From a virus (Duplodnaviria > Heunggongvirae > Uroviricota > Caudoviricetes), in the IMG/VR virus record IMGVR_UViG_3300012943_000028, positions 240,642-304,641 of that record: a stretch of DNA of 64,000 nucleotides. One strand, given 5' to 3'. Both the position numbers and the translations under genes were made by a program. The notes beneath the pieces were generated by a model. The model was not told the origin of the DNA. It searched no databases and saw nothing but the letters and a program-made list of their open reading frames with translations. Shown here in pieces: positions 4,989 through 51,960 of the stretch. How positions within the stretch are numbered: the stretch's first letter is position 1; every line of letters starts with the position of its first letter.

Positions 4989-6363
4989 ACTTGAACTCCT
5001 TCAGCTCGCGACGGAACATCTCGTCGGCGGAATCCGCCTCGAGGGAGGCGAGGACCTTCTTCAGGTCGGCGACCTCGTTCTTGAGCTCGTCGATCTTGTC
5101 CTTCGTGAGGTTCCACATCTGCATCTGCAGCAGGCGGTCGTAGTCGACGAACTTGTTCTTGAGCAGCAGCTCGACAAGGTCGTCCTTCTTGCGATTGCGG
5201 AACTTGTCCACGTTGTCGAGGTAGAAGAGGATGAAGCGCAGCTTCTCGCTCATCCACCTGATGGACTCCTTGGTGGTGGCGATCTGCAGCTGCCGACGGT
5301 CTTCGTAGCGGGCGACTCGCCAGGTGGTGAAGCGCTCGATGATGTCCTCGACCGAGTCGAACCGCTTCAGCGTGCCGTCGATGTCCCAGAGCGTGTAGTT
5401 CTCCGTGTCACGCGCAACCAGCTTGAACTTGCGGTACAGCTCCTCGACGTCGAGGGCGGTGGTGCTGCGCGGGACGGTGATGGTGAAGTCGAACTTCGTC
5501 TCGTCAGTCTTGCCGATGTCGTAGTCCTTGACGAAGCCGCTCTCCTCGAGCTTGTGGAGCGTGTCCTTGAAGTCGTCGAGGTAGGTGCCGACTGGAAGTT
5601 CGGTCACCTTGATGGTGGTCGAGTTGACGACCTCCAGCTTGCCAGTGATCACGACCTGGCCCGTTTCTGGGTTGCGCTCGATCGTGCCGCTGAAGCCCTT
5701 GTACCAGGGAGTCAGCGTGCCGGCCTTCAGCTTCTTGCCGTCGAGGACCTTCAGCACGGCATCACGCACGTGCAGTGGGTGGTACGCCATGATCAGTGAG
5801 GCGTGACCAGTGCCGGTGCCGACCGAGCCGTTGATGAGGGCGATCGGCAGCAGTGGCGCGTACGTCTTCGGTTCGATCTTCTCGCCGTCCGTCTCGTTGT
5901 GCTCGAGGATGGCGTCGTCGGCCTTGTTGAAGAGAGAGCGGAAGTAGGGTGAGAGCTTCGTCTCGATGTACCTCGCGGCGGCAGGCTCTGCTGTCAGGCG
6001 ACTGCCGAACTGGCCTTCAGGTACGAAGAGGTTCATGTTGTTCGAGCCAGCGTAGTTCGTAGCGAGGCCGACGATGGTGCTCTGCATCGAACCGATACCG
6101 TGGTGGTAGTCGGTGCTGGCGGCGATGGCGGCGGCGAGACGCTCGACCTGGATCAGGCCAGCGGATTCACCACGAAGGAAGGTGCCATAGAGCGCCTTGC
6201 GCTGCGACGGCTTGAGGCCGTCCGTCAGGCGAGGGATCGAGCGAACGTTGTCGTACAGCGAGAACTCCTTGAAGGCAGAGTTCATGAAGTGCTGCGCGCG
6301 AATCTGGCGGCTGGCACGATATGCAGCGGAATCAGTCATCGTGTTGGTTCCCTTTGTTGCCAT
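4978..6363 (-). CDS. DNA topoisomerase II medium subunit (T4 gp52-like, GyrA-like breakage-reunion domain)
   Basis: Contains DGLKPSQRK (GyrA/ParC active-site region). The length and domain order fit the T4 gp52 family. The start is uncertain: ATG at 6363 (MATKG; leaderless, 6 nt after the -10) or 6339 (MTDSAAY, with an AAAGGGAA ribosome-binding site). The ORF-track start at 6399 lies upstream of the predicted promoter -10. Confidence 0.85.
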   Translation of the reverse strand: MATKGTNTMTDSAAYRASRQIRAQHFMNSAFKEFSLYDNVRSIPRLTDGLKPSQRKALYGTFLRGESAGLIQVERLAAAIAASTDYHHGIGSMQSTIVGLATNYAGSNNMNLFVPEGQFGSRLTAEPAAARYIETKLSPYFRSLFNKADDAILEHNETDGEKIEPKTYAPLLPIALINGSVGTGTGHASLIMAYHPLHVRDAVLKVLDGKKLKAGTLTPWYKGFSGTIERNPETGQVVITGKLEVVNSTTIKVTELPVGTYLDDFKDTLHKLEESGFVKDYDIGKTDETKFDFTITVPRSTTALDVEELYRKFKLVARDTENYTLWDIDGTLKRFDSVEDIIERFTTWRVARYEDRRQLQIATTKESIRWMSEKLRFILFYLDNVDKFRNRKKDDLVELLLKNKFVDYDRLLQMQMWNLTKDKIDELKNEVADLKKVLASLEADSADEMFRRELKEFKYVS

Positions 6364-6420
6364 GTGGCTATTATACCTCGAACCTGTGTGAAAGTACACT
6401 TAACATAATGTGCCTCAGCC
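6361..6420 (-). promoter_or_regulatory. conserved phage promoter motif copy 1 (TTAACATAAT half-site, GTGTAC box, 18 nt, TATAAT)
   Basis: Minus strand reads CATTATGTTAA-GTGTAC-N18-TATAAT-AGCCAC-ATG. Same architecture as five other intergenic sites. Confidence 0.55.
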
Positions 6421-6421
6421 G

Positions 6422-6745
6422 TCAGAGCTTGACCGAGACAGTCGTGTGGAGCTTCACCTCGCCAGGGTGGGCGTAGAAGACCTTGAACTTCTTGCTGTAG
6501 TGGCTCTCGGCCTCCCGCAGAATCCACCAGTTCAGTGCCTCCTCGCTCTCGAACCAGGCCACCGTCAGGTAGTTGTCAGTGCAGCTGCTCGAACCGCCGT
6601 ACGGGTCGGGATACGACCGTGTCTCGTTCTGGAAAACGAAGAACTGGGCGGAACTTGGCAGCTTGTCCACGCTTGATACAACGTGGCACTGCTTGTTGTA
6701 CTTCGTGTAGGCGTCTCGCTCTGCGTCTGACATTCCCATGATCAT
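6422..6745 (-). CDS. hypothetical protein
   Basis: 107-aa ORF between the two topoisomerase subunit genes. Confidence 0.45.
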   Translation of the reverse strand: MIMGMSDAERDAYTKYNKQCHVVSSVDKLPSSAQFFVFQNETRSYPDPYGGSSSCTDNYLTVAWFESEEALNWWILREAESHYSKKFKVFYAHPGEVKLHTTVSVKL

Positions 6746-8694
6746 GCCTCGATGAAGTCTTCGAAGTTGGCGGCCGGCGTTTCGAGCCAGGACTTGCGAT
6801 CGTCGGCCCGCTGGCCGTTGAAGGCGAGGTCGATGGCGGCCTTGTCATCCTTGTCACGGACGCTGATCTTGAAGAGGTAGCGGTCCAGGCTCTCCATGTA
6901 GGGCTTGAAGTCGGGGGTCTTGGTCGTGCCGAGACCCTTGAAGTAGCGGTGCGTCCAGCCTCGCAGCTTCTCGCCGTCCTTCTTGACCCAGTCCTTGAAC
7001 TCCCGCTCGGTGAAGAACTCGTGGACGACCTTGTCCTTCACGTACACCTTCACGATCGGCGTGCGGAGGATGTGGACGAAGCCCATCTCGAAGAGCTCCG
7101 GCCAGAAGTGGTCGAAGAGGTTGATGAGCAGGCCAGAAATGTGGGCACCGTCAACGTCTGCGTCGGTGGCGAAGGCGACCCGCCCGAAGCGAAGCTCGCG
7201 GAGCGTGTTGACCTTGACGCCGATCTGCAGGCCGATGATCGTGAGAATCTTCTGGATTTCGTTCGGCTCCGTCTTGCCTTCCTTCCGCTTGTCGAGGCCG
7301 AGCACGCGGGCAATCTCCTTCTCGCGTACGTTGAGCGGCTTGCCCTTGAGCGGGAAGGTTGCGACATATTGGTGGTCAGCGGTTGCGAAGAGGGACTTGG
7401 ACGCCGAGTCACCTTCTGCCAGGAAGAGCGTGCACTTGCTGCGATCTGCCTTCTCGCTGGCGTCGTTGAACTTGTCGATGCGCTTGGGGTTGGCCTTGTC
7501 GAGGTCCTTGTTGAGCTTGCGCAGCTCGCGCAGCTCGTCCATCTGCTGCTTTGCCATGACCCAGTCGATGATGGCCTGGATGATCGACGACTTGACGATC
7601 TTGTTGATCATCTTGTCGGGCACCGTCCATGTCGTCTTGTAGTCCTTCACCTCGGTGATGAGGTCTTCCTTCGTCTGCGACGAGTAGCGAGGGTTGACGA
7701 TGTTGCAGTCGAGGAAGAGGGTGAGGTGCTGGCGGATGTCGGCGGGCTTGACCTCGACCTTGTGCTTGCGCTTGATGTGGTCTCGCAGGCTGTCGACGAT
7801 CTGGTTGATGACGTACGTGATGTGCGATCCGCCGATCTTCGTGTTCGTGCCGTTCACGAAGGAGACGTGCTGGAAGCCGTCGTCGCTGGAGGCGATGGCG
7901 ACCCGCCAGTTGTCGGTCTCGTCGAAGGCGTACTCGCCTTCCTCGCCGACGTACATCTCGACGTAGTCCTTGAAGGTGCGCGTCATGATGCGCTCACCGT
8001 TCCAGTAGACCTTCAGGTGGGTGTTGATGCCGGCGATGTCGACGACCCGCTTGAGCAGCATCGCCACGTTGCCCTCATCGAGGGTGCAGCCGAGCTTCGT
8101 GAAGTCGGGGCGGTAGGTGATGCGCGTGTAGCCCTTCGAGCCGTCAGCGTCGGTCACCTTGGCAGGCTTGCGGTCCTGCGAGTTCTCTTCGAAGACCATC
8201 TTGAACTTCTGCTTGCCGTCGCAGGTCTCGACGGTGAATCGTTCAGAGAAGATGTTGGTGAGGGCGGCACCTTCACCGTTCTGGCCAGTGAGCATTGCCT
8301 GGTCGTTGTCGTCGAAGTTCGAGCCGGCGCGCAGCTCGAAGATCATCTCAGGCACCCACTGGTTGTACTCCTTGTGCTTGACGACGGGGATACCACCGTT
8401 GTCGTACACGCTGATCTCCCCCTTCTCGGCGTCTACCTCGACTCGAATGATGTCGAGGTGCTTGCCTTCGGGCCGCTTCGAGTGGTCGACCGAGTTGGAG
8501 ATGACCTCGTCGAAAAGCTTGATGAAGCCGGGGTTGAAGGTGATTTCCTTCTTGACCATCCGCTTGGTGGCGGGGTCGTACGTGTAGGCCGTCTCGGTAT
8601 GGGCGGTGATGGAGCCGATGTAGCGGCCCGGGCGGAGCAGAACGTGTTCTACCTCGCTGAGCTTCTTGAACTTCTGTTCGATGGTCTTGACCAC
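6742..8694 (-). CDS. DNA topoisomerase II large subunit (T4 gp39/gp60-like, GyrB-like ATPase plus Toprim)
   Basis: The N-terminal LRPGRYIGS matches the GyrB LKRPGMYIG motif. The 650-aa length fits a fused gp39+gp60 arrangement. GTG start at 8694 with a TGAGG ribosome-binding site. Sits next to the gp52-like gene. Confidence 0.9.
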   Translation of the reverse strand: MVKTIEQKFKKLSEVEHVLLRPGRYIGSITAHTETAYTYDPATKRMVKKEITFNPGFIKLFDEVISNSVDHSKRPEGKHLDIIRVEVDAEKGEISVYDNGGIPVVKHKEYNQWVPEMIFELRAGSNFDDNDQAMLTGQNGEGAALTNIFSERFTVETCDGKQKFKMVFEENSQDRKPAKVTDADGSKGYTRITYRPDFTKLGCTLDEGNVAMLLKRVVDIAGINTHLKVYWNGERIMTRTFKDYVEMYVGEEGEYAFDETDNWRVAIASSDDGFQHVSFVNGTNTKIGGSHITYVINQIVDSLRDHIKRKHKVEVKPADIRQHLTLFLDCNIVNPRYSSQTKEDLITEVKDYKTTWTVPDKMINKIVKSSIIQAIIDWVMAKQQMDELRELRKLNKDLDKANPKRIDKFNDASEKADRSKCTLFLAEGDSASKSLFATADHQYVATFPLKGKPLNVREKEIARVLGLDKRKEGKTEPNEIQKILTIIGLQIGVKVNTLRELRFGRVAFATDADVDGAHISGLLINLFDHFWPELFEMGFVHILRTPIVKVYVKDKVVHEFFTEREFKDWVKKDGEKLRGWTHRYFKGLGTTKTPDFKPYMESLDRYLFKISVRDKDDKAAIDLAFNGQRADDRKSWLETPAANFEDFIEA

Positions 8695-8724
8695 GGTTTG
8701 CCTCAGGCTTCTGTTGAGATAGGA

Positions 8725-8790
8725 CTATCTTATCACGAACCTGTGGAAAGGTACACAGGTCACCCAGTTAACATAATGTCAGGCTACCTG
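8725..8790 (-). promoter_or_regulatory. conserved phage promoter motif copy 2
   Basis: Minus strand reads CATTATGTTAAC-N9-CCTGTGTAC-N18-TAAGAT, upstream of the topoisomerase large-subunit gene. Confidence 0.55.
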
Positions 8791-8946
8791 GCCGAGGGCC
8801 CGGTTGCACTCATATGAGCAGGCTGGTTTGTGACCGCTGATGGCCCGTGAGATGGCGTTCATGTCCCCGTCAGGGAACATCTTGCGGCAGTGCGCGCACT
8901 CGATGTCAGGCGGACGCTGGTATTTCGGCTCTTTCTTTGACTTCAT
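8779..8946 (-). CDS. small Cys-rich protein (possible zinc ribbon), weakly supported
   Basis: ORF 8779..8994 trimmed to the internal Met (MKSKKEPKYQRPPDIECAHCRK...). It overlaps the 3' end of queC and the promoter copy 2 elements. Confidence 0.3.
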   Translation of the reverse strand: MKSKKEPKYQRPPDIECAHCRKMFPDGDMNAISRAISGHKPACSYECNRALGQVA

Positions 8947-9613
8947 CTTTCGGTACCTCAACGTATCCCACCTCGACACCAGGTATCGATGCATCGCAGA
9001 CGACTTGATCGGTTTCTTTCTTCAGTTCATCGAGCAGACCGAGATCGACCATGCGCTTGCACGAGTTGCAGCGACGGCACGACCAACCGTGCTCCATCGT
9101 TTCATGCGACTCGCACCACGTGACATGGTCACGCAGCTTCGAAGGCAGCCAGCTGTGGACGTGCTGCTTCGGAGATTTCGAAAGTGGGAAGGTTACCTCC
9201 CACTTTGGGTTGACGAGGAGCCCCTTGAAGCCGTCGAACATCGCCTTGATCTCATTGAGGTACGAGATGGCGCAGTCGTTCATGACGTAGCCGATGGCGA
9301 TCTCGGTGATCCCGTCTGGAAGAACGTGCATCACGACGGGCCAGAGGATGGCCTGCTGGAGGGCGACGTGGTTGCCTGAGGTCTTGACGTCGACCTTGAC
9401 GACGGTGCCCATGTAGTTGAAGAGGTCGCCGAACTCTGCCTTCAAGAGCGGCACGAGTCTCTCGATGGCTTCCTGCTCACGCTTCGACTGCACCTCGTTG
9501 TTCATGATCTCAACGTAGCCAGCTGAGACCTTGTACCCTTCAGAGAGGCGACAGTAGATGAGGTAGGTCGAGTCGAGACCACCGCTCCACAGCGTGAACG
9601 TATGCGACTTCAC
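8906..9613 (-). CDS. queC: 7-cyano-7-deazaguanine synthase QueC (PP-loop ATPase)
   Basis: N-terminal SGGLDS PP-loop motif and a C-terminal Cys cluster (CRRCNSC) typical of the QueC zinc site; ~235 aa. Confidence 0.8.
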   Translation of the reverse strand: MKSHTFTLWSGGLDSTYLIYCRLSEGYKVSAGYVEIMNNEVQSKREQEAIERLVPLLKAEFGDLFNYMGTVVKVDVKTSGNHVALQQAILWPVVMHVLPDGITEIAIGYVMNDCAISYLNEIKAMFDGFKGLLVNPKWEVTFPLSKSPKQHVHSWLPSKLRDHVTWCESHETMEHGWSCRRCNSCKRMVDLGLLDELKKETDQVVCDASIPGVEVGYVEVPKDEVKERAEIPASA

Positions 9614-10949: not shown

Positions 10950-11015
10950 TGGATTTCAAGGTCAGAGACGATAAATACTACACTGACCGTGCTGTAATGA
11001 AAACTGGAGCCGCAC

Positions 11016-12605
11016 ATGTACATCGTACAATGGACTAGCAAGGACCTAGAGTCAATCCCTGGAAAGGAGGATGTCTCTATCGCTGATGGTGCCCTTGACA
11101 CATCAACAACATCGCTCGTCCTGACCGGAAGCTTCCCACAGGATAACTTCCTGCGCCTCCTTGAGAACTTTGCATCAGCAAATGAACCAGCAAACCCAAC
11201 CATCGGCCAAATCTGGTTCGACTATGACAACAACCAGCTCAAGGTCTATGACGCAACGCAGTCATGGGCTGCCATTGGTGGAGGAGGCGGTGGTAGCGTG
11301 AACTCGGTTGCCGTTGCATCGTCAACGATCTCGGTCTCTGGCTCGCCAATTACGTCAAGCGGCACGATCACAATCAACCTTCCAGCTTCTGGCGTTACCG
11401 CTGGCTCGTACACCCTTTCGAACATCACGGTAGACGCATATGGTCGCATCACCGCTGCAAGCAACGGTTCTGCTGGATCAGGTACGGTCACGTCGGTCGG
11501 CGTCTCTGGCAACAACGGCATCAGCGTATCTGGCTCGCCAGTTACCTCAAGCGGTACGATCACTATCGGCCTTGGTGCCATCACTCCAACTTCTGTCGCA
11601 GCATCAGGTGCCGTTACCGGCAGCAACCTTTCTGGTACGCACAGTGGCTCATCATCAGGCACCAACACTGGTGACCAGACCATCACGCTTACTGGTGACG
11701 TAACCGGTTCAGGCACTGGCTCGTTTGCTACAACACTTGCCACGGTCAACGCTAACGTTGGCTCATTCACGAACGCCAACATCACCGTCGACGCCAAGGG
11801 CCGCATCACCGCAGCCGCCAACGGCTCGTCAGGTACTAGCTTCCCACTGCTTGCCCCAGATGGATCAGCCGCTGCACCATCGTACGCATTCGCTTCACAG
11901 ACCGGCATGGGTTGGTCGCTGCTCACGAGCTCAGCAATGCGCTTCTCGATCGGTGGCGTGTCGAATGGTTACTTCTCTGGTGGTGTCAACGCTGATGGTG
12001 CGCTGAACCTCAACCAGAACGGTTCGGCAACTCGCGCATACGTTAGTTGCGGTGGTGGTGGTGGCCACTCAACGCAGCTTGTCGATGACGCATCGGAAAG
12101 TCGTGGCTCCATCCGCAGCACGCGTTCAGAGCTCGCATTCGCACCAAGCTTCTCAGGCAGCACGAACGGTACGTTCATGCTCAAGGCCAACGAGGTCTAC
12201 CTCCCAACTGGCCTTGGTACGACAGCATCAGCCGCAAACGCATTCATCAACGCAAGCTCATCACCAGCTAACCAGCTGCTTCGTTCAACGTCGTCGATCC
12301 GCTACAAGCAGGACGTTGAGAACGTAACGGCTGAAGAAGCTGACGCCGTTCTTGAGCTTCAGCCTGTAACGTACTCTAGCAAGTGTGAGGCAGATGATCC
12401 AGCAAAGCGCTGGTACGGTCTCATCGCTGAAGACGTTTATGCTGTCGATCAGAAGCTCGTGCACTACATCAACATTGATGATGAGCTGGTACCAGACGGT
12501 GTTCAGTACGACCGTCTGACCGTACTGCTGCTTGACGTGGTCAAGCGCCAGAACGCAAGGATCGAAGCGCTTGAGGCAGCTGTCGCCGCCCTTCAGAATC
12601 CGTAA
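11016..12605 (+). CDS. tail fibre protein with C-terminal intramolecular chaperone (peptidase S74-like) domain
   Basis: Gly/Ser/Thr-rich repeats (VSGSP(I/V)TSSGTITI, ITVDA(Y/K)GRITAA). The C-terminal SSIRYKQDVENV...YGLIAEDV is typical of auto-cleaving chaperone domains of tail fibres and endosialidases. Confidence 0.8.
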   Translation: MYIVQWTSKDLESIPGKEDVSIADGALDTSTTSLVLTGSFPQDNFLRLLENFASANEPANPTIGQIWFDYDNNQLKVYDATQSWAAIGGGGGGSVNSVAVASSTISVSGSPITSSGTITINLPASGVTAGSYTLSNITVDAYGRITAASNGSAGSGTVTSVGVSGNNGISVSGSPVTSSGTITIGLGAITPTSVAASGAVTGSNLSGTHSGSSSGTNTGDQTITLTGDVTGSGTGSFATTLATVNANVGSFTNANITVDAKGRITAAANGSSGTSFPLLAPDGSAAAPSYAFASQTGMGWSLLTSSAMRFSIGGVSNGYFSGGVNADGALNLNQNGSATRAYVSCGGGGGHSTQLVDDASESRGSIRSTRSELAFAPSFSGSTNGTFMLKANEVYLPTGLGTTASAANAFINASSSPANQLLRSTSSIRYKQDVENVTAEEADAVLELQPVTYSSKCEADDPAKRWYGLIAEDVYAVDQKLVHYINIDDELVPDGVQYDRLTVLLLDVVKRQNARIEALEAAVAALQNP

Positions 12606-12845: not shown

Positions 12846-12853
12846 GTCACACC

Positions 12854-13384
12854 TCACATCTGCTTGGACCACTGACGCACCACGATCTCGTACAGCTCGA
12901 GCAGCTTCGGATCGGAAAGCGTAGTGATGATCTCTGGCTTGATCCTCTTCATTGCGGCCTTGCCCTTCTTTGTGGTCGTGCTGCCGCCCATTTCCTTGTG
13001 GAGCCACTCTTTCACGCTGCTCCAGCGGTGCCCATCAGAGAAGCCGTGTACAGTCATGAAGTAGATGGCACGCTGCTCGATGGCAGAGCGGAACGAGAAA
13101 CCTTCGATGCGCCTCGGTGCCTTCGGCTCCACGTTGAGCTGATTGCAGACGAACTCTACAGCATCGCCGACGGTGCGCATGTTTTCACCGTCATCATCGG
13201 AGATGTTGAAGTCAAAGGCCTCCTCCAGCGCCATCACCAGCTCAACGGTGTCGAGCGAGTCGGTGCCAAGGTCGGCAACGAACTGGGTGTCGAGGGAGAG
13301 GAGGTGAACTTCAGTGTTGAACTCCTCAGCGACGATCTTCTTGATCGTGCTCTCGATCTCCTCGTACGAGTAGTACGTCTTCAC
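12854..13384 (-). CDS. acyl-carrier-protein domain protein (ACP fused to a C-terminal domain of unknown function)
   Basis: LGTDSLDTVELVMALEEAFDF is the canonical ACP phosphopantetheine-attachment motif (DSL). The C-terminal ~95 aa have no recognizable family. Confidence 0.75.
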   Translation of the reverse strand: MKTYYSYEEIESTIKKIVAEEFNTEVHLLSLDTQFVADLGTDSLDTVELVMALEEAFDFNISDDDGENMRTVGDAVEFVCNQLNVEPKAPRRIEGFSFRSAIEQRAIYFMTVHGFSDGHRWSSVKEWLHKEMGGSTTTKKGKAAMKRIKPEIITTLSDPKLLELYEIVVRQWSKQM

Positions 13385-13833
13385 TTCTGCTCCTTCGAGA
13401 GAGCGACCAGCTCCATGTAGAAGTGGAAGTAGCGGGCCATGCGGGCGATGTCCTTGTCGGCGACGCCACGCAGGCGTCGGATGTCAGTATTGTGCCGCAG
13501 ATCGCAGAGCTTCACGCGCACTGAGTCGGGGTTGCTCTTGACCTTCAGCTTGTACTCGTCGTACGTTTCGCCAGGCAGCTTCGTCAGGCACTTGATGCCC
13601 TCGATGACACGGTCTGTCATGCCCGCGTTCTTCAGGTCCTGGTACGTGGTGTCAGTGTCCTCGATGAGGTCGTGGCCGAGGGCGATACACAGCAGCTCCT
13701 CGTCTTCCGAGTTCAGGAGGTTCATCACCGCCAGCGGGTGCAGAATGTAAGGGTGTCCACCCTTGTCAAACTGGCCCGCGTGTTTGTTGGTCGCAATGAC
13801 CAACATTGCATTCAGCATTTCGCCCTTGTTCAT
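13381..13833 (-). CDS. HD-domain phosphohydrolase (RelA/SpoT-type (p)ppGpp-hydrolase-like)
   Basis: H...HPLAV...GHDLIEDT pattern of the SpoT/Mesh1 HD domain. ORF trimmed to the internal Met MNKGEML. Confidence 0.7.
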   Translation of the reverse strand: MNKGEMLNAMLVIATNKHAGQFDKGGHPYILHPLAVMNLLNSEDEELLCIALGHDLIEDTDTTYQDLKNAGMTDRVIEGIKCLTKLPGETYDEYKLKVKSNPDSVRVKLCDLRHNTDIRRLRGVADKDIARMARYFHFYMELVALSKEQK

Positions 13834-14369
13834 GATGCCTTCTTCTGTTCGTCCATGTACGCCCAGCTGGACGCGAGGTAGTCGTGGATGCGGGCCATGA
13901 ACTCCTTGTCGAAGGAGAACATGGTATGGTTGTCGATGTCCCACCAGAAGTCCGGCTTCCACAGCTCACGTTCGGCCTTCTGTTTCTCCCACACCTTCTT
14001 CTGCTGTGGGGTCTTGACGTAGTCAGGCATCGTCTCGTAGCGATCTTCCGGAGCAAACTTGCTCCACTCCTTCAGGCGCACCTTGTCGGCACGGAGATCG
14101 ATGAGCAGCGAGTTGTACTCGACAAACTGCTTGTCGTCGAGGAAGGAGAGGACACGCAGTGAGCGGTCCTGGTTGTCCTTGATGTGGTTGAGGGTGCGCA
14201 GCTTGATCAGCGCATCGCACGCCTGTAGGGCACGCAGCGACTTTGGCAGGGCGCCGAACTCGAACTCGGCGGAGCCCATGTAGTCGAGGTTGACAGCGCT
14301 GCCGATGCGCTCATTGGACTCGGCAAGCGGGCGACGAATCTTCGCACGTTGGATCAGCCACATCTTCAT
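13830..14369 (-). CDS. hypothetical protein
   Basis: 179-aa ORF downstream of promoter copy 3. Confidence 0.5.
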   Translation of the reverse strand: MKMWLIQRAKIRRPLAESNERIGSAVNLDYMGSAEFEFGALPKSLRALQACDALIKLRTLNHIKDNQDRSLRVLSFLDDKQFVEYNSLLIDLRADKVRLKEWSKFAPEDRYETMPDYVKTPQQKKVWEKQKAERELWKPDFWWDIDNHTMFSFDKEFMARIHDYLASSWAYMDEQKKAS

Positions 14370-14402
14370 AGGTCAGCTTCCTCGGACAACCTTGGTAGAA
14401 CC

Positions 14403-14452
14403 ATTGTAAGCTCCTGCAATCAACCTGTACACAGTCTCATTATGTAAAATGG
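14403..14452 (-). promoter_or_regulatory. conserved phage promoter motif copy 3 (in a divergent intergenic region)
   Basis: Minus strand reads CCATTTTACATAATG-N5-CTGTGTAC-N18-TACAAT, then a GAGGAAG ribosome-binding site and the ATG at 14369. Confidence 0.5.
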
Positions 14453-14510
14453 AACAGCACTACGTAAATACCTGATTAGAGATTTCACCAGCGAGCTTGA
14501 GTGATACGAT

Positions 14511-15095
14511 ATGAAGGTGCTTGAACTCCTTGAGCAGCACGAACCTGCGGGCCTTTCGTCCGTAGAGTTCTCAGCGCTCTCACCGCCATCGGCCAAGAAC
14601 ATCGACGACCGTTACAAGGTGGGTGATGTTGCCTTTGACAGCAAGGTTGGTATTGGTGCTGTGCCGCACAACCAGGATGTCAAGTACTTTGGTTTTGCGC
14701 TCGAGCTAACCCCGTCAGACTTCCTTCATCTTGCGGCTACAGGTGATCGCACCGAAACTGCAAAGCAGATTGAAAGGCTGATTGTCAAGAAGGTGCCAGT
14801 TGGGCCACCGCTGCTCAAGCTGAACGTGAACCTAGAGGACAAGGCTGGCAAGCCGTTTGCCGCTGTCGCTACTCACGAAGGCAGGGCCAGAATGGAGGCA
14901 CTTCAGCGCCTTGGAATGGGTGACGTAAAGTTCCCAGTCCACGTGGTCATGAATGGTGGAGTACGTGCGCATAGCCTCGACGAAAAGTTCTTTGAGAGAC
15001 TTCGTGATGAGGGCATCGTACCAGAAGACTTTGATTCCCTCGGTCCACACGAAGCTAACGTTGGTAGAATCTTCTGGAGAGGAAGAGAGCTGTAA
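14511..15095 (+). CDS. hypothetical protein
   Basis: 194-aa plus-strand ORF starting after the divergent intergenic region. Confidence 0.5.
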   Translation: MKVLELLEQHEPAGLSSVEFSALSPPSAKNIDDRYKVGDVAFDSKVGIGAVPHNQDVKYFGFALELTPSDFLHLAATGDRTETAKQIERLIVKKVPVGPPLLKLNVNLEDKAGKPFAAVATHEGRARMEALQRLGMGDVKFPVHVVMNGGVRAHSLDEKFFERLRDEGIVPEDFDSLGPHEANVGRIFWRGREL

Positions 15096-15721
15096 TGAAA
15101 CTTCATGAGGTTGCTGGTGCAAGCAAGCGCAGCGGAACGCTGTACGTGTTTGACATCGATGATACGCTGTTCCGCACTACGGCGCAGGTACGTGTCATCA
15201 AAGATGGTGAGCCACCAAAAACTCTAACCAGCCAGGAATTCAATGACTACAAGCTCAAACCTGGTGAACGCTTCGACTACGGTGAGTTCGTTGACGCAGA
15301 GAAGTTCAACACAGAGAGCAAGCCGATCCCAAAGATGATTCAGACGCTAGTGCGAGTGCACGACAAGGTCAAGCTGAACCTTACGCCTGGCTCAAAGGTG
15401 ATCATCAGCACCGCACGTGGCATCCTTGACGATCAAGACACCTTCGACGACACGTTCAGGTATCACGGCATCGACATCGACAACATTGAGGCCAACCACG
15501 CCGAGCATGGTAAGGGGTCGTCGCCGGCAGAACGCAAGAACTCTGTTGCTCGACGCTACCTCAGCGCACATGATTACGATGCGTGCTACATGTACGACGA
15601 CAGCAAGACCAACCTTACGTACTTTCTACAGCTGAAGCACGAATTTCCTGAGGTAGATTTCAGGGCCTTCATCATTAATGATGAAGGCGAGATGCATCAG
15701 TTTACCGCTGAAGCTCGCTGA
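15095..15721 (+). CDS. HAD-superfamily hydrolase (phosphatase)
   Basis: YVFDIDDTLF matches HAD motif I (DxDxT). Confidence 0.65.
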   Translation: MKLHEVAGASKRSGTLYVFDIDDTLFRTTAQVRVIKDGEPPKTLTSQEFNDYKLKPGERFDYGEFVDAEKFNTESKPIPKMIQTLVRVHDKVKLNLTPGSKVIISTARGILDDQDTFDDTFRYHGIDIDNIEANHAEHGKGSSPAERKNSVARRYLSAHDYDACYMYDDSKTNLTYFLQLKHEFPEVDFRAFIINDEGEMHQFTAEAR

Positions 15722-26393: not shown

Positions 26394-26436
26394 GATGGCA
26401 GCTGTGATGTGATGCCATATTTATTGCCTTGCCCGA

Positions 26437-26495: not shown

Positions 26496-26894
26496 TTACA
26501 GCGCCTTTGCGATCGCCGCGGCGATCTCCACCTGCGTGCCGGCGGCCGGCACCTTCACGTTGAACTTCTCGGCGGTCTTCAGCAGCTTCGGCATGTTCGA
26601 CGGGTGGACGGCGATGCCGCTGCCCGACTTCACCGACGCCAGCCACTTGGGACCGAACTGGAAGCCACGCTTGCCCTCGTTGTGCACGACCTTGCTGCGG
26701 TACTTGGCGACGCGCAGCTGGCCGCCGTTCTTGGCGATCTTGGCCAGGTACTTCGCCACGACTTCACCCAGGCGCTTGAACGAGCGGACTTCGTTCTTCT
26801 TGATCAGTTCACGGGCGGCGGCTTCGTCGCTCACGCCCAGGGAAGCGGCCTTCAGGACCAGATCACCAACTTTCGGCTGATTGCTCATTGTCAT
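26496..26894 (-). CDS. hypothetical protein (FGPKW-family paralog A)
   Basis: 132 aa; shares FGPKW..SVK.G.GIA.H with 26926..27372. Confidence 0.5.
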   Translation of the reverse strand: MTMSNQPKVGDLVLKAASLGVSDEAAARELIKKNEVRSFKRLGEVVAKYLAKIAKNGGQLRVAKYRSKVVHNEGKRGFQFGPKWLASVKSGSGIAVHPSNMPKLLKTAEKFNVKVPAAGTQVEIAAAIAKAL

Positions 26895-26925: not shown

Positions 26926-27372
26926 TCACAGCTTCGGGCTCAGCATCTCGCAGAGCTCGAGGTCAGTGTACTTCTCGGGATTCTTCAAGCCGAGCACCAC
27001 GCGAGCGTGGTGGTCCAGCTTTTCCTTGTCGTGCAGGGCGATGCCCTTGCCACGCTTCACGCTGTCGTTCCACTTGGGACCGAAGGCGTAGCGGCGGCCG
27101 TTTGGAGCCGGCACTTCACAGCGCTTGCCCTTGATCGACGACTTGATCTTGAGGACGCGCGGGCCCTGCGGCTTCTGCTCTTCCTCGACGATCGGCCCTT
27201 CGGCCTCGACGACCGCTGCGGCAGCCATCACCTGCTTGCGGAAGGTGCGGTCGAGAAGATCGACGTTCACCTCGACCGGCAGCTTGCGTTCGATTCGACG
27301 AAGCAGCGCCAGTGCAGCGGGATTTCCGGCATCGTACGGCAGCTTCGTGATCTTTGAGATTTCCTGCAGCAT
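26926..27372 (-). CDS. hypothetical protein (FGPKW-family paralog B)
   Basis: 148 aa; the AFGPKWNDSVKRGKGIALH block is shared with the adjacent gene. Confidence 0.5.
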   Translation of the reverse strand: MLQEISKITKLPYDAGNPAALALLRRIERKLPVEVNVDLLDRTFRKQVMAAAAVVEAEGPIVEEEQKPQGPRVLKIKSSIKGKRCEVPAPNGRRYAFGPKWNDSVKRGKGIALHDKEKLDHHARVVLGLKNPEKYTDLELCEMLSPKL

Positions 27373-27396: not shown

Positions 27397-27448
27397 ATTG
27401 TACTACGAACTTCTTGACTTGTACACAACTTCGTGATTTTACATAATG
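27397..27448 (-). promoter_or_regulatory. conserved phage promoter motif copy 4
   Basis: Minus strand reads CATTATGTAAAA-N9-TGTGTAC-N18-TACAAT, then an AGGAGAA ribosome-binding site and the ATG at 27372. Confidence 0.5.
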
Positions 27449-28515: not shown

Positions 28516-28835
28516 CAGATGGTGTTGAGAGTGTAGAGGCCCGTCTTCTTCAAACGCGTTTCGATGGCATGGGCCTCGGATTTGCCACGAACGAACTGCA
28601 AGATGCGGGTGGTGAAAGACTTGGCACCGTGCATGCGAATTGACTCGCACAGCCTCCAGTCCTTGTCGTGAAGCATGGCACGGCCAATGTGGCGTGTCCA
28701 GCGTGAAGCGAGTGATTTCTTTCCGGACCGATCGGTCCGAACGGTCAGGCCGACGTACTCCTCGCCAGTCACGAGGTTCGTCAGCACGTAGATCAGGTGT
28801 ACCCTGTCCGACCGGCGCTTTCGAGAAGTCTTCAT
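28515..28835 (-). CDS. GIY-YIG nuclease-domain protein
   Basis: HLIYVLTNLVTGEEYVGLT matches the GIY-x10-YIG motif. ATG at 28835 lies 7 nt downstream of the predicted -10 (possibly leaderless). Confidence 0.65.
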   Translation of the reverse strand: MKTSRKRRSDRVHLIYVLTNLVTGEEYVGLTVRTDRSGKKSLASRWTRHIGRAMLHDKDWRLCESIRMHGAKSFTTRILQFVRGKSEAHAIETRLKKTGLYTLNTI

Positions 28836-28842
28836 GGAGGCC

Positions 28843-28918
28843 ATTCTATCACAGCCCCGGGGAATGTACACAGGTCAGCCCGTTATGTTAACTTGACTGA
28901 CCGGACCGTTATGTAAAA
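28843..28918 (-). promoter_or_regulatory. conserved phage promoter motif copy 5 (two TTATGT half-sites)
   Basis: Minus strand reads CCATTTTACATAAC...GTTAACATAAC-N9-CCTGTGTAC-N17-TAGAAT. Confidence 0.5.
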
Positions 28919-31221: not shown

Positions 31222-31280
31222 TTTCTGGCTGTCCTCTAGCAGTCGGGTCTTAACGACCTATTTATCGCCATGGTGCCGGA

Positions 31281-43149: not shown

Positions 43150-43218
43150 GGCTCTACCTAGGGGAACTGGTGGTCCATTGTAACACGGTGACAATCAGCA
43201 GTAAACCAACAACCTCGA

Positions 43219-46812: not shown

Positions 46813-46918
46813 TAGACACCTCAGGACGATACGGATATTTATGCCCACCGGCGTCGATCTGATAAATATCGTAGGGAGAAAGTCACCTGGCTGGTGACGC
46901 CTATTAGGAGTATCGGAA

Positions 46919-49120
46919 ATGCTATTCGACGGTATCAAGCTTGTAGAAGGCTCTGAGGTTCAGAACCTGGTTGTTGACACTGGATCAGTGTTTCCCGCCT
47001 CACCAAACGACGGTGAGCTGTTCTACATCAACAACACTGGCGATGGTAATGACATCGGCCTGTACGTCTACTCTGAAACGGACACCGCATGGTTCCGCCA
47101 AGTAGCTGAAGGTGATGACATCGGCGACATTCTCCCAGACGTCGTCTCACCTGGTACCTACAAGTCCGTCACGGTTAGCGCCAAGGGTATCGTAACGGCC
47201 GGCACCAACCCAACCACTCTCTCAGGCTACGGCATCACCGATGCCCAGCCGCTCGATGCCGACCTCACCGCAATTGGTGCGATCTCGGCTACCTCAGGTC
47301 TGCTCCGTAAGACGGCAGCAAACACCTGGTCGCTCGACACCTCAACTTACCTCACCACGAACGAAACAATCACGCTTTCTGGTGACATCTCCGGTTCAGG
47401 CACGTCCTCAATTTCCACGACGCTGGCTAACACTGCCGTTGGTCCAGGTTCGTACGGCACTGCAACCAACGTTGCCACCTTCACCGTCGATTCCAAGGGT
47501 CGCCTCACGAACGCTTCGAACACGCCGATCGCAATTGACGCTTCAGCAGTAACATCTGGCAGCTTCGCAAACGGTCGCATCTCACAGGCAAGCGTAACGC
47601 AGCATGAGTCTGCTCTGACGATCCTCGAGTCACAGATCACCGACGGCGCAACGCTCGCTCGCGTTGGTGCAAGCGAGACCATCTCTGGAGCATGGACGTT
47701 CAACAACGCTATCACCCAGAACACCGCCCCAACGGTCAGCACGCACGTAGCAACCAAGGGCTATGTGGACAACGTCGCCTCTGGCATGAACGTCCACCTC
47801 GCCTGCCGTGCTGCAACCACTGCCAACCTTTCGTCTACGTATGACAACGGCGCATCTGGTGTCGGCGCAACGCTCACCGGTTCAGGTGCCCTCGGTACAA
47901 TTGATGGTGTCACGATGGTCGTCGCAGACCGCGTGCTCGTCAAAAACCAGACCGACCCAAAGCAGAACGGCGTCTACGTCGTAACGCAGACCACAGCAAA
48001 CTGGGTACTTACCCGTGCTGATGACTTCGACAACTCACCAACTGGTGAAGTCGTTGCAGGTGACAGCACCTTCATCCAGGAAGGTACACAGGCCACCACG
48101 CAGTGGGTGCAGACCACAACCGGCTCTATCACGATCGGTACCAGCAACCTAGTCTTCACGCAGTTCGGCGGTCCAGGTACCTACCTCGCCGGCGCCGGCA
48201 TCAACATCACTGGCACGACCATCGCCAACACCGGCGTTACGTCGGCTGCTGGTGGCACCGGCATCTCAGTCAACGCCGCAACTGGCGCAGTAACGTTCAC
48301 CAACACTGGCGTAACGAGCCTCACTGGTGGTACGAACATCAACGTGTCAGCCGCAACTGGTGCGGTAACCATCAGCATTACCGGCACGGTCGCTTCAGCT
48401 ACCTCTGCAACCACTTCAACGAACGTCGCTGGCGGTGCTGCAAACAGCCTTGTCTACCAGACTGGTTCAGGTACGACTGGATTCATTGCAACTGGTACCG
48501 GCGTTCTCGCCGCATCTGGTGGCGCTCCAGCTTACACGACTGCACCATCAATCGCTGGTACAAACTTCAGCGCAATTCCAAACTCGGCCCTTACCAACAG
48601 CAGCGTCACGGTTACCGCAGGTACCGGCATGTCTGGCGGTGGTGCAGTATCTCTCGGTGGTTCAGTCACGCTCAACAACACAGGCGTTACCTCACTGGCC
48701 GGTACTTCAAACCAGGTGTCGGTGTCTGGCGCAACTGGTTCAGTCACGATCTCAATTCCATCAACATTCGTCGCACCTGGTTCGGTTCAGGCCACCACAT
48801 TCGTCAAGAAGTCAGTCACGACTGGCGTCACCGCAGCTGGTTCAAACTCAGCTGGTGCAACGCTGCTTACAACTGAAATCAACGACGTTGGTGCAGGCAG
48901 CGGTGGTGTTCGCCTTCCAAACTCGCTTGGTACTACGTTCATCGTTCGCAACTCACTCGGTTCGGCGCTCAATGTTTACCCAACGTCTGGCGGTACCATC
49001 TACAGCAGCAACGTCAGCTATGGCACGGACGGCGCATACGCGCTGCCAGTTGGTGCAACGATCATGTTCATTCAGGTGACCTCATCTGTATACGTGGTAC
49101 TGAACTCAGCATACGTTTAA
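46919..49120 (+). CDS. tail fibre protein
   Basis: 733 aa, Gly/Thr/Ser-rich, with the LSGYGITDA phage tail-fibre repeat, FTVDSKGRLTNAS shared with the 11016 fibre, and three NTGVTS...AATGAVT repeats. Confidence 0.8.
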   Translation: MLFDGIKLVEGSEVQNLVVDTGSVFPASPNDGELFYINNTGDGNDIGLYVYSETDTAWFRQVAEGDDIGDILPDVVSPGTYKSVTVSAKGIVTAGTNPTTLSGYGITDAQPLDADLTAIGAISATSGLLRKTAANTWSLDTSTYLTTNETITLSGDISGSGTSSISTTLANTAVGPGSYGTATNVATFTVDSKGRLTNASNTPIAIDASAVTSGSFANGRISQASVTQHESALTILESQITDGATLARVGASETISGAWTFNNAITQNTAPTVSTHVATKGYVDNVASGMNVHLACRAATTANLSSTYDNGASGVGATLTGSGALGTIDGVTMVVADRVLVKNQTDPKQNGVYVVTQTTANWVLTRADDFDNSPTGEVVAGDSTFIQEGTQATTQWVQTTTGSITIGTSNLVFTQFGGPGTYLAGAGINITGTTIANTGVTSAAGGTGISVNAATGAVTFTNTGVTSLTGGTNINVSAATGAVTISITGTVASATSATTSTNVAGGAANSLVYQTGSGTTGFIATGTGVLAASGGAPAYTTAPSIAGTNFSAIPNSALTNSSVTVTAGTGMSGGGAVSLGGSVTLNNTGVTSLAGTSNQVSVSGATGSVTISIPSTFVAPGSVQATTFVKKSVTTGVTAAGSNSAGATLLTTEINDVGAGSGGVRLPNSLGTTFIVRNSLGSALNVYPTSGGTIYSSNVSYGTDGAYALPVGATIMFIQVTSSVYVVLNSAYV

Positions 49121-49141
49121 TCAAAGAAGAGAGCGCATAGA

Positions 49142-51190: not shown

Positions 51191-51326
51191 TCGAACTTGT
51201 GATCAGCTGTAGATGAACTGCTTGAAGCTGTTCAGTGCCAGTGCGATTCGGAATTCCACCTGCGTCATGAACATCTGGAAGCGGAGCTTGCGGATGTCAC
51301 GGTTGATCTGACGAACTGCGTCCATG

Positions 51327-51860
51327 TTACTCTCCAGCGTAGAAGGTTGAGGTGATGATGATCATGACGTCTTCACCGACGTTCGGCTGTCGGACCATGA
51401 CGCCTTGCATCTGAAGACCCGCGTAGGTGGCCGTGTAGTTCCAGCCGACCGTTCGCATCTCGAAGACCGTGACGCAGCCGTTCGAATCGGCCGCAGAGGT
51501 GCGCTTCTCGTAGGAGCGCTTGTCGATGTTGTTGCCGATGGCGCCGCCAGCTGCAGCGCCTGCCACCGTCGCAACCCCATTCTTGTCGCTGATGACGTAG
51601 CCTGCTGCAGCACCTGTGATGGCACCGATGATCGTGCCTTTGTTCACGACGCTGTGCGGCTTGGGCTTGGTGGGATCGGGGCAGTCGTAGCCGACGTTGA
51701 TCGGCTTGGTGATGGGCGACCCGACCGAAATGATCGTGCCAACCACTCGCTGGGTGAATTGAACGCCGGGACCAGATGCGCCGTCAGGGCGGTTGGCAGG
51801 AATGTCCTGCGCATTTGCCGTTGCGGCGGCGATCAGAAGAGCAGCGGTCAGGGCTTTCAT
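51327..51860 (-). CDS. secreted glycine-zipper protein (Gly-zipper_2TM / 17-kDa surface-antigen-like)
   Basis: Signal peptide MKALTAALLIAAATANA and GTIIGAITGAAAGYVISDKNGVATVAGAAAGGAIG glycine zipper. Confidence 0.65.
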   Translation of the reverse strand: MKALTAALLIAAATANAQDIPANRPDGASGPGVQFTQRVVGTIISVGSPITKPINVGYDCPDPTKPKPHSVVNKGTIIGAITGAAAGYVISDKNGVATVAGAAAGGAIGNNIDKRSYEKRTSAADSNGCVTVFEMRTVGWNYTATYAGLQMQGVMVRQPNVGEDVMIIITSTFYAGE

Positions 51861-51891
51861 CGTGATGCTCCAGTGTGTCGAAGTAGGAGCA

Positions 51892-51960
51892 TCATATCAA
51901 GAACTGGGGAATTGTACACAGGTTGACAGTTATGTTAACTGGAACGGTCAGTTAACATAA
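51892..51960 (-). promoter_or_regulatory. conserved phage promoter motif copy 6 (two inverted TTATGTTAAC sites)
   Basis: Minus strand reads TTATGTTAAC-N12-GTTAACATAAC-N9-CCTGTGTAC-N16-TATGAT. Confidence 0.5.

What the first reader, a model, noticed from the sequence alone, without database searches (positions are those of the whole stretch)
6361..51960. Six copies of a composite promoter: palindromic TTATGTTAAC-type half-sites, a GTGTAC box at about -30, and a -10 hexamer
At 6361-6420, 8725-8790, 14403-14452, 27397-27448, 28843-28918 and 51892-51960 the minus strand reads: one or two copies of TTATGTTAAC, GTTAACATAA or TTTTACATAA; 5-12 nt; (CC)TGTGTAC; 16-18 nt; TA(T/C/A)(A/G)AT. There is no TTGACA-like -35. 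The GTGTAC box sits where a -35 would be, reminiscent of T4 middle promoters, where an activator box replaces the -35. TTATGTTAAC is its own near-palindrome, and sites 5 and 6 carry two copies in inverted orientation, like a dimeric regulator's operator. Two sites (upstream of the topoisomerase medium subunit and the GIY-YIG gene) place the -10 only 6-7 nt before an ATG, implying leaderless mRNAs or alternative starts. The motif marks the heads of long minus-strand gene blocks, so it likely defines one temporal class of transcripts.
Basis: seen in the sequence. Interest (0 to 1): 0.65.

Follow-up and report, generated by a model that had tools for sequence, protein, structure and literature searches.

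The report
Phage early promoters with upstream boxes
Six real, conserved promoter cassettes in an uncultured T4-like phage combine an ordinary T4-early-type core promoter with a previously undescribed 13-bp upstream box that probably binds an unidentified regulator.

Summary
The window holds exactly eight TTATGTWAA/TTWACATAA boxes, all within 37 nt upstream of six minus-strand GTGTAC-N17/18-TAnnAT promoters. Shuffled sequence gives no composite match.

The "GTGTAC box" is not a MotA-like substitute for the -35. It sits at the T4 early-promoter -35 position (GTTTAC, -36 to -31). At orthologous promoters in related uncultured phages it interchanges with GTTTAC. The window has no MotA-type promoters.

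The new part is the upstream box, extended consensus cc-A-K-TTWACATAA-Y-g. It is conserved in five phage genomes, always next to an NTGTAC promoter and never next to a TTTAC one. More distant relatives carry a different box, GTTACAC, in the same place.

Boxes stay conserved while the DNA around them diverges. Site 4 is a chimera of two promoters of the closest relative, which points to PeSL-like cassette shuffling.

Leaderless starts (ATG 5-7 nt after the -10) are conserved for the topoisomerase medium subunit and the GIY-YIG gene.

My best reading is host sigma-70-type early promoters with a weakened -35, plus binding sites for an unknown sequence-specific factor, probably an activator. That makes this a new variant of a known kind, of moderate interest. 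The factor and the timing of transcription are untested.

The parts
6361..6408 (-). Site 1. Box TTATGTTAA 6400-6408, directly abutting GTGTAC 6394-6399. 18-nt spacer containing CAGGTT. -10 TATAAT 6370-6375. ATG 6361-6363, 6 nt after the -10, is the leaderless start of the topoisomerase II medium subunit.
8692..8776 (-). Site 2. Box TTATGTTAA 8768-8776. 11-nt linker ending in CCT. GTGTAC 8751-8756. Spacer with CAGGTT. -10 TAAGAT 8727-8732. 32-nt leader with GAGG, then GTG start 8692-8694 of the topoisomerase II large subunit.
14367..14448 (-). Site 3. Box TTTACATAA 14440-14448. GTGTAC 14427-14432. -10 TACAAT 14403-14408. ATG 14367-14369 of a 179-aa protein of unknown function. This site heads the long minus-strand block.
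14465..14470 (+). T4-late-type TAAATA motif on the opposite strand of the site 3 intergenic region, facing the plus-strand genes 14511-15721. It is conserved in L002.
   Evidence: late consensus TATAAATA from PMC1524935
27370..27446 (-). Site 4. Box TTATGTAAA 27438-27446. Linker ATCACGAAGTT. GTGTAC 27421-27426. -10 TACAAT 27397-27402. ATG 27370-27372 of a 148-aa protein. The promoter is a chimera of two promoters of the closest relative, with the breakpoint in TGTACA.
28833..28917 (-). Site 5. Two direct boxes, TTTACATAA 28909-28917 and TTAACATAA 28883-28891. GTGTAC 28866-28871. -10 TAGAAT 28843-28848. ATG 28833-28835, 7 nt after the -10, starts the GIY-YIG endonuclease gene.
51858..51960 (-). 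Site 6. Two inverted boxes, TTATGTTAA 51952-51960 and TTAACATAA 51930-51938. GTGTAC 51914-51919. -10 TATGAT 51891-51896. ATG 51858-51860 of a 177-aa glycine-zipper protein.
43177..43206 (-). Box-less sister promoter GTTTAC-N18-TACAAT, just after a strong terminator hairpin.
54091..54119 (-). Box-less sister promoter GTTTAC-N17-TAGAAT.
56771..56800 (-). Box-less sister promoter GTTTAC-N18-TAGAAT. A TATAAATA late-type motif lies at 56812-56819.
60819..60848 (-). Box-less sister promoter GTTTAC-N18-TACAAT.

Best explanation
The six sites are promoters of the T4 early type, read by the host's primary (sigma-70-family) RNA polymerase. GTGTAC is the -35 element. It is a one-base variant (G at -34) of the T4-family early -35 GTTTAC, and the TAnnAT hexamer 17-18 nt downstream is the -10.

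The feature specific to this clade is a 13-14-bp box, cc-A-(T/G)-TTWACATAA-(T/C)-g, with palindromic ends CATT/AATG. It occurs in one or two copies and in either orientation. The proximal copy is centred at about -41 to -52. The distal copies are centred at about -72 and -77.

I infer that each box binds a sequence-specific protein, phage-encoded or host, that modulates these promoters. The most likely role is an upstream activator that compensates for the poorer -35. Boxes always accompany TGTAC and never accompany the better TTTAC.

At two of the sites (1 and 5) transcription starts at, or one base from, the A of the start codon, which gives leaderless mRNAs.

The cassettes also act as portable homology patches at which genes are shuffled between related phages.

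Shown here: motif anatomy, statistics, conservation, -35 interchange, chimerism and the conserved leaderless geometry. Inferred: which polymerase reads them, that a protein binds the box, whether it activates or represses, and when the promoters fire.
For: 1. Statistics. 8 of 8 boxes lie in 6 of 6 GTGTAC promoters, with 0 composite matches in 300 shuffles.

2. Geometry matches T4 early promoters. GTTTAC lies at -36 to -31 in T4 (PMC1524935), and the spacer here is 17-18 nt.

3. Orthologous promoters swap GTGTAC and GTTTAC.
- Upstream of the topoisomerase large subunit: GTGTAC in the window, L002, L013 and L008; GTTTAC in L003, L004, L005, L006, L007 and L009.
- Upstream of the medium subunit: GTGTAC, ATGTAC, TTTTAC, GTTTAC and GATTAC.

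4. A shared extended consensus, GTKTAC..CAGGTT..(G)TG.TATAAT, holds across relatives of 39-57% GC.

5. Footprinting against the closest relative (89% identical topoisomerase).
- Boxes are kept at the homologues of sites 1, 3, 4, 5 and 6. At site 2 the relative has a one-base-insertion variant, TTATTGTTAA.
- Linkers and neighbouring genes diverge or are not homologous.

6. 21 distinct box instances in five genomes all lie upstream of NTGTAC promoters. An A two bases 5' of the 9-mer is invariant even though it was not part of the search pattern.

7. Box-less promoters in the same genomes are mostly TTTAC.

8. In more distant relatives a different box, GTTACAC, takes the same place. In L005, L006, L007 and L009, 13 of 15 copies lie within 60 nt upstream of promoters, which is about 1.6% of the sequence. 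Copies occur as direct repeats or as inverted repeats.

9. The -10-to-ATG distance of 5-7 nt is conserved across relatives whose orthologues are 61-71% identical in protein sequence.

10. Site 4 is a chimera of two promoters of the relative.
Against: - There are no transcript 5' ends, no expression timing and no binding data, and the host is unknown.
- No DNA-binding, MotA or AsiA domain was found in about 80 window ORFs, so there is no candidate factor.
- The proximal box centre varies over more than a helical turn (gaps 0-11 nt). That is unusual for a face-of-helix-dependent class I activator.
- Several GTGTAC promoters in relatives have no box (L128, L263, L284), so G at -34 does not by itself require a box.
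- The box is A+T-rich in a 55% GC genome and lies where UP-element subsites lie. A contribution from direct alpha-CTD contact cannot be excluded.
- Many of the 21 box instances are orthologous, so they are not independent observations.
Confidence: 0.6

Rival explanations
1. GTGTAC is an activator box that replaces the -35, as the MotA box does at T4 middle promoters (sigma appropriation). The six sites would then form a middle class that depends on a phage activator bound at about -30.
For: - GTGTAC is strictly conserved at all six sites and differs from TTGACA.
- Two of the downstream genes, the topoisomerase subunits, belong to the DNA-metabolism class.
Against: - The spacing to the -10 is 17-18 nt, which is the early -35 register. 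A MotA box lies 11-13 nt from the -10 (PMC1524935).
- GTGTAC interchanges with GTTTAC at orthologous promoters.
- The window has no TGCTTNA-N11-13-TANNNT match.
- No MotA or AsiA domain was found.
- The generic sigma-70 scan already scores TGTACA as a -35.
Confidence: 0.08
2. The boxes are UP-element-like A+T-rich sequences contacted directly by the RNA polymerase alpha C-terminal domains. No dedicated regulator is involved.
For: - The proximal box centres (about -41 to -52) coincide with the UP proximal and distal subsites. This comparison rests on my own knowledge of UP elements.
- T4-type early promoters carry A-rich UP-like regions at -40 to -44 (PMC1524935).
- Low-GC relatives have A-rich runs directly upstream of GTGTAC.
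- Tolerance of either orientation and of variable spacing fits the flexible alpha linkers.
Against: - Eight of nine core positions are invariant in 21 of 21 instances, including a central C/G, and so is a flanking A. That is far more sequence-specific than minor-groove A/T reading requires.
- The equivalent box in other clades, GTTACAC, is not A/T-rich and forms perfect palindromes such as GTGTAACgatcGTTACAC in L005.
- Boxes are absent from the GTTTAC promoters of the same genome.
Confidence: 0.15
3. The boxes have no transcriptional role. They would be conserved homology patches or target sequences for recombination or homing-endonuclease mobility that merely travel with promoters.
For: - Site 4 is a recombinant of two promoters, and the box module sits at a different gene junction in the relative.
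- Genes upstream of sites 2 and 5 are not homologous between the window and the relative.
- GIY-YIG and HNH genes lie between sites 4 and 5.
- PeSL cassettes in RB49/phi1 mediate this kind of shuffling (PMC2839356).
Against: - Recombination needs homology, not an exact 13-bp word kept while its flanks diverge (site 6 against L156).
- Boxes hold a constant position relative to the -35 in five genomes.
- They are tied to TGTAC rather than TTTAC promoters.
- Boxes also sit at stable junctions such as the topoisomerase genes.
Confidence: 0.1
4. The boxes are operators for a repressor, such as an early shut-off factor, rather than an activator.
For: - The pseudo-dyad box and the paired or inverted copies resemble classical operators.
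- At site 1 the box abuts the -35.
Against: - Most boxes lie 7-11 nt upstream of the -35 or further away, and do not overlap the core promoter.
- Their association with the weaker -35 variant is easier to explain by activation.
Confidence: 0.15

Closest known systems
T4-family early promoters (GTTTAC at -36 to -31, GT-rich stretch before TATAAT, UP-like A-rich region; Nolan et al. 2006, PMC1524935)
   Same: - Same register and near-identical -35 word: GTGTAC/GTTTAC, 17-18 nt from a TAnnAT -10.
- A G/T-rich stretch before the -10 in many members.
- Many copies, on the coding strand, in short intergenic gaps upstream of early-type genes (nucleotide and DNA metabolism, small ORFs, homing endonucleases).
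- Occurs in a phage with T4-type late motifs (NATAAATA).
   Different: - G at -34 in the box-bearing class.
- A conserved CAGGTT element inside the spacer.
- The A-rich UP-like tract is replaced by a discrete, exactly conserved box that works in either orientation.
- Some members start leaderless mRNAs.
PeSL cassettes (promoter-early stem-loops) of RB49/phi1 (Arbiol et al. 2010, PMC2839356)
   Same: - Repeated composite cassettes of about 60-100 bp that fill intergenic gaps.
- A sigma-70-like early promoter plus an upstream element.
- Located at junctions where gene content differs between close relatives.
- Direct evidence here of a promoter-promoter recombinant (site 4).
   Different: - A stable stem-loop is present at only 2 of 6 sites (z = -3.2 and -4.4).
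- The stem-loops are not polyG/polyC terminators.
- The conserved upstream element is a specific 13-bp word rather than an AT-rich tract plus hairpin.
T4 MotA/AsiA-dependent middle promoters
   Same: A sigma-70-type -10 combined with a non-canonical upstream word, in a T4-like phage.
   Different: - The MotA box TGCTTtA lies 11-13 nt from the -10, centred at about -30. GTGTAC lies 17-18 nt away.
- No MotA box, MotA domain or AsiA domain was found in the window.
P2/P4 Ogr/Delta-dependent late promoters (TGT-N12-ACA; PMC3931495). That they have a poor -35 and that the dyad is centred near -55 is from my own knowledge.
   Same: A sigma-70 -10, a weak -35, and a short dyad-like site for a small phage activator centred near -50 to -55. 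This is the mechanism I consider most similar.
   Different: - The sequence differs, and there is no TGT-N12-ACA here.
- Copy number and spacing are variable.
- No Ogr/Delta family protein was detected.

Membership tests
T4-type early promoter | -35 word GTTTAC (or a close variant) at -36 to -31, about 17-18 nt upstream of the -10 | tested here: met
   GTGTAC lies 17-18 nt from TAnnAT at all six sites. It interchanges with GTTTAC at orthologous promoters. The definition comes from PMC1524935.
T4-type early promoter | sigma-70-like -10 with A at -11 and T at -7 | tested here: met
   The hexamers are TATAAT, TAAGAT, TACAAT, TACAAT, TAGAAT and TATGAT.
T4-type early promoter | A-rich UP-like tract at about -40 to -44 | tested here: not met
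   The window sites have GC-containing linkers (for example ACCT) at -40 to -37 and the discrete box further upstream. Low-GC relatives do have A-rich tracts.
T4-type early promoter | Recognised by unmodified host sigma-70 holoenzyme immediately after infection | not testable with these tools
   This needs in vitro transcription or a time-resolved transcriptome.
T4 MotA-dependent middle promoter | MotA box (a/t)(a/t)(a/t)TGCTTtA located 11-13 nt upstream of the -10 | tested here: not met
   The window has 0 matches to TGCTTNA-N11-13-TANNNT. GTGTAC lies 17-18 nt from the -10.
T4 MotA-dependent middle promoter | Phage encodes MotA and AsiA | tested here: inconclusive
   About 80 ORFs were scanned with Pfam and/or PHROGs and none showed a MotA or AsiA domain. 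The window covers only part of the genome.
PeSL regulatory cassette | Strong sigma-70-like early promoter in a repeated intergenic cassette | tested here: met
PeSL regulatory cassette | Stable stem-loop (often polyG/polyC) that acts as a terminator | tested here: not met
   Only sites 5 and 6 fold significantly (z = -3.2 and -4.4). The stems are made of the boxes or their flanks, and no U-tract follows.
PeSL regulatory cassette | Cassettes mark insertion, deletion or replacement junctions between close relatives and recombine with each other | tested here: met
   The site 4 chimera and the relocated box module. Non-homologous genes upstream of sites 2 and 5.
UP element | A/T-rich sequence at -40 to -60 without strict base identity, read in the minor groove by alpha-CTD | tested here: inconclusive
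   Position and A+T richness fit. The 21/21 invariance, including a central C and the flanking A, does not fit, nor does the GC-containing GTTACAC equivalent.
Ogr/Delta-type activated promoter | TGT-N12-ACA dyad (PMC3931495) plus a C4 zinc-finger activator; centring near -55 is from my own knowledge | tested here: not met
   None of the sites has a TGT-N12-ACA dyad. The 71-aa ORF with CX2CX22CX3C at 8779-8994 has no Pfam hit and no homologue in the related loci held.

The most novel reading that the evidence does not exclude
The boxes would be operators of a phage-encoded, MotA-independent transcription activator. That activator would define a delayed-early or middle promoter class in a deep-branching, uncultured lineage of T4-like phages. 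Operator and factor would have co-evolved: TTWACATAA in one clade and GTTACAC in its sisters. This would be a second, independent solution to the middle-mode problem in T4-like phages that lack MotA.
Probability: 0.3. Interest if true: 0.65.

Novelty: new variant of a known kind. Interest (0 to 1): 0.45.

Why it matters
Most T4-like phages outside the T-even group lack MotA, and how they stage transcription between the early and late phases is poorly understood.

This lineage has a discrete upstream box that is exactly conserved. The box is tied to a weakened -35, and in sister clades a different box takes its place. Together these give a concrete, testable handle on that question: a pull-down bait and a reporter design.

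The data also give a clean natural example of promoter-cassette recombination, and of leaderless translation starts conserved for an essential replication gene.

The practical use is a promoter model for annotating this uncultured phage group.

Tried and rejected
**My own initial reading of site 1.** I first thought the second ATG, with an AAGGGA Shine-Dalgarno-like sequence, was the real start. Comparison with relatives rejected this.

**No useful result from database searches.**
- No near-identical DNA in cultured phages. The best cultured relatives, Xanthomonas phages X1 and BUDD (55% identity in the large subunit), have neither the box nor the promoter consensus.
- Rfam finds only three tRNAs.
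- Pfam and PHROGs scans of about 80 ORFs gave no DNA-binding candidate.
- A full-text search for TTAACATAA returned only unrelated papers.
- The viral and metagenome pattern scans returned mostly single chance hits. Only four contigs carry several real sites.

**Alternative readings of the boxes, rejected.**
- The box as the -35 (TTAACA) of an overlapping promoter, with TACAAT inside GTGTACAAT as its -10. This fits only sites 5 and 6.
- TGTACA as a shared -35 for a divergent plus-strand promoter, with CATAAT inside the box as its -10. This fits only sites 2 and 4, and no plus-strand gene lies there.
- The boxes as terminator hairpins. Only 2 of 6 sites fold significantly.

**Comparisons with known binding sites.** I compared the box from memory with NtcA (GTA-N8-TAC), CtrA (TTAA-N7-TTAAC and TTAACCAT), the DnaA box, IHF, Fis, TyrR, PhoP, LexA and OmpR-type half-sites. 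None fits. The OmpR-like resemblance (GTTACA, TTTACAT) is only a lead.

**A weak protein lead.** The 71-aa ORF at 8779-8994 has CX2CX22CX3C spacing like that of Ogr. It has no family hit, is absent from the closest relative at that position, and overlaps the upstream gene.
Full report
**What the window is.** The 64-kb window (50-62% GC) is almost entirely minus-strand coding. It encodes T4-type topoisomerase II large and medium subunits and a helicase. It also encodes thymidylate synthase, DHFR, nucleotide kinases, NUDIX, two HNH endonucleases and one GIY-YIG endonuclease, and three tRNAs. No cultured phage matches it at the DNA level. The best cultured relatives are Xanthomonas phages X1 and BUDD, at 55% identity in the large subunit. 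IMG/VR holds uncultured relatives whose large subunit is 89% to 51% identical, L002 to L013.

- TTATGTWAA occurs eight times against 0.07 expected, and every copy is in the six sites.
- A one-mismatch scan with the extended 11-mer finds the same eight and no others.
- The full composite pattern occurs six times, all on the coding strand, and never in 300 dinucleotide shuffles.

Several details need correcting. The box-to-GTGTAC gap is 0-11 nt, not 5-12. The two copies at site 5 are direct, not inverted. In the TGTACA register the box is a 4-of-6 match to TTGACA at 16-17 nt, and the generic sigma-70 scan reports four of the six sites, 3-6.

**The GTGTAC box is a -35 element, not a MotA-like box.**
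- The window has four more promoters of the same build that read GTTTAC instead of GTGTAC and have no upstream box.
- GTTTAC at -36 to -31 is the published -35 word of T4 early promoters. T4 MotA boxes lie 11-13 nt from the -10 (PMC1524935). The spacer here is 17-18 nt.
- Upstream of the orthologous topoisomerase large-subunit gene, the window, L002, L013 and L008 read GTGTAC. L003, L004, L005, L006, L007 and L009 read GTTTAC.
- Upstream of the medium-subunit gene the word is GTGTAC, ATGTAC, TTTTAC, GTTTAC or GATTAC.
- Across relatives of 39-57% GC the promoter consensus is GTKTAC-(w)TTT..CAGGTT..(G)TG.TATAAT.
- The window has no MotA-type promoter. About 80 ORFs were scanned with Pfam and/or PHROGs and none showed a MotA or AsiA domain.
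- T4-late-type NATAAATA motifs sit after terminators in other gaps, and one sits on the opposite strand of the site 3 intergenic region.

The phage therefore has recognisable early-like and late classes, and the six sites belong structurally to the early-like one.

**The upstream box is the new element.**
- Pattern scans of IMG/VR and of JGI metagenomes returned mostly single chance hits. Four contigs carry several real sites: 3300012943_000030 (the closest relative), 3300012943_000386, 3300012943_000029 and the 368-kb contig 3300005537_000001.
- In all loci held from these genomes, every TTWACATAA copy lies just upstream of an NTGTAC-N16-18-TAnnAT promoter.
- The 21 distinct instances give the consensus cc-A-(T/G)-TTWACATAA-(T/C)-g. 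The A two bases 5' of the core is invariant although it was not part of the search pattern.
- The 14-mer has palindromic ends (CATT/AATG) around an asymmetric core. That explains why it occurs in both orientations, and it suggests that each box is a complete site rather than a half-site.
- Boxes never accompany TTTAC promoters. Box-less promoters in these genomes are mostly TTTAC, although a few box-less GTGTAC promoters exist.

**Conservation pattern.** I aligned the window against the 89% relative. The homologues of sites 1, 3, 4 and 5 keep the boxes while the linkers and neighbouring genes diverge or are unrelated. At site 2 the relative has a one-base-insertion variant, TTATTGTTAA. The site 6 homologue (L156) keeps both inverted boxes around a diverged spacer.

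In more distant relatives a different word, GTTACAC or GTTACAA, takes the same place, in one to three copies. The copies are direct repeats with periods of 9-14 nt, or inverted repeats such as GTGTAACgatcGTTACAC in L005. In L005, L006, L007 and L009, 13 of 15 GTTACAC copies lie within 60 nt upstream of a promoter, which is about 1.6% of the sequence. So the architecture is conserved while the word has changed.

**Leaderless starts.** I first favoured a second ATG with a weak Shine-Dalgarno sequence for the topoisomerase medium subunit. Relatives overturned that reading. In L002, L013, L004, L003 and L007 the ORF begins at an ATG 5 nt after the TATAAT; in the window the distance is 6 nt. In-frame stops lie inside or next to the -10, and L003 and L007 have no second Met. 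The GIY-YIG gene has its ATG 6-7 nt after the -10 in the window, in L026 and in L227, whose protein is 61% identical. This conserved geometry is itself good evidence that transcription starts where the promoter model predicts.

**Cassette shuffling.** In the relative, the module ACATTATGTWAAATCACGAAGTTGTGTACA sits between the homologues of window genes 26926-27372 and 26496-26894. In the window it sits upstream of the first of these genes. The right half of window site 4 (GTTCGTAGTACAAT) matches the relative's box-less promoter upstream of that gene, and the breakpoint lies in TGTACA. Genes upstream of sites 2 and 5 also differ between the two phages, and homing-endonuclease genes lie between sites 4 and 5. 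This parallels the PeSL-mediated modular shuffling described for RB49 and phi1 (PMC2839356). The cassettes here lack the defining terminator stem-loop, because only sites 5 and 6 fold significantly.

**Mechanism.** The motif anatomy, conservation, -35 interchange, chimerism and leaderless geometry are shown. Three things are inferred:
- that the host primary-sigma holoenzyme reads these promoters;
- that a sequence-specific protein binds the box;
- that this protein activates transcription.

I favour an activator because boxes lie upstream of the core promoter and are tied to the -35 variant further from consensus, as at P2 Ogr-dependent promoters (TGT-N12-ACA, PMC3931495; that those promoters have a poor -35 with the dyad centred near -55 is from my own knowledge). 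Against a strict class I activator, the box centre varies over more than one helical turn. A UP-like contribution, a repressor role, or a purely recombinational role remain possible, with lower weight. No candidate factor was found. A 71-aa ORF with CX2CX22CX3C at 8779-8994 is only a weak lead.

**Verdict.** The finding is real and is more than a chance motif. Its core is an ordinary T4-type early promoter. The MotA analogy is wrong. The upstream box, together with the conserved leaderless starts and the cassette chimerism, is a new variant of a known kind, of moderate interest.

Noticed in passing
window 6361-6375; L003 about 12440-12480; L004 12221-12260; L007, L013 and L002 at equivalent positions; L005 7574-7612; L227 1352-1390; L263 13809-13847: ATG start codons lie 5-7 nt after a -10 hexamer at several promoters of this phage group. 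This suggests that leaderless mRNAs are a regular feature of the lineage, including for an essential topoisomerase subunit.
   Followed up: partly
window promoter spacers, for example 6381-6386 and 8738-8743; L003, L006, L007 and L128 promoters: A CAGGTT element inside the -35/-10 spacer, at about -24 to -18, is conserved across clades of very different GC content. It occurs in both GTGTAC and GTTTAC promoters. No function is assigned.
   Followed up: no
window 56391-56814 (minus strand): A 424-nt ORF-free stretch lies downstream of a GTTTAC promoter and a TATAAATA late-type motif, and ahead of a 587-aa phrog_850 'RNA-binding protein' gene. It could be a non-coding RNA or a long leader. It has no Rfam match.
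   Followed up: partly
window 54061-54119 (minus strand): The GTTTAC-N17-TAGAAT promoter is embedded in the loop of a terminator-like hairpin, AAAGGGCGA...TCGCCCTTT, followed by GTTTTG. This resembles a PeSL-type arrangement.
   Followed up: no
window 8779-8994 (minus strand): A 71-aa ORF with a CX2CX22CX3C motif, spaced like the Ogr/Delta C4 zinc finger, ends 2 nt before the site 2 box. It has no Pfam hit and no homologue in the related loci held, and it overlaps the upstream QueC-like gene.
   Followed up: partly
window 12854-13384, 13381-13962, 8906-9613, 61285-61638 and 61955-62374 (all minus strand): Unusual auxiliary genes for a phage. They are an acyl-carrier-protein-like PP-binding protein, an HD-domain protein, a weak QueC-like protein, an IscA-like Fe-S assembly protein and an RF-1-domain (ArfB-like) protein.
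   Followed up: no
window 26418-26425, 31259-31266, 56812-56819 (minus strand); 46861-46868 and 14465-14470 (plus strand): T4-late-type (N)ATAAATA motifs. Those at 26418 and 31259 lie just after strong terminator hairpins. Two face plus-strand genes, one of which (46919-49120) matches head-decoration and virion structural protein families.
   Followed up: partly
L156 1452-1478; window 28877-28900: In the site 6 homologue of the closest relative, and at window site 5, the proximal box sits in the loop of a GC-rich inverted repeat (GGTTGGCAG/CTGCCAACC and GGTCAG/CTGACC). I cannot say whether this is functional.
   Followed up: no
window, whole: GTGTAC is about twice as frequent as expected overall (38 observed against 19.5 expected). 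The excess remains after the six promoter copies are removed.
   Followed up: no
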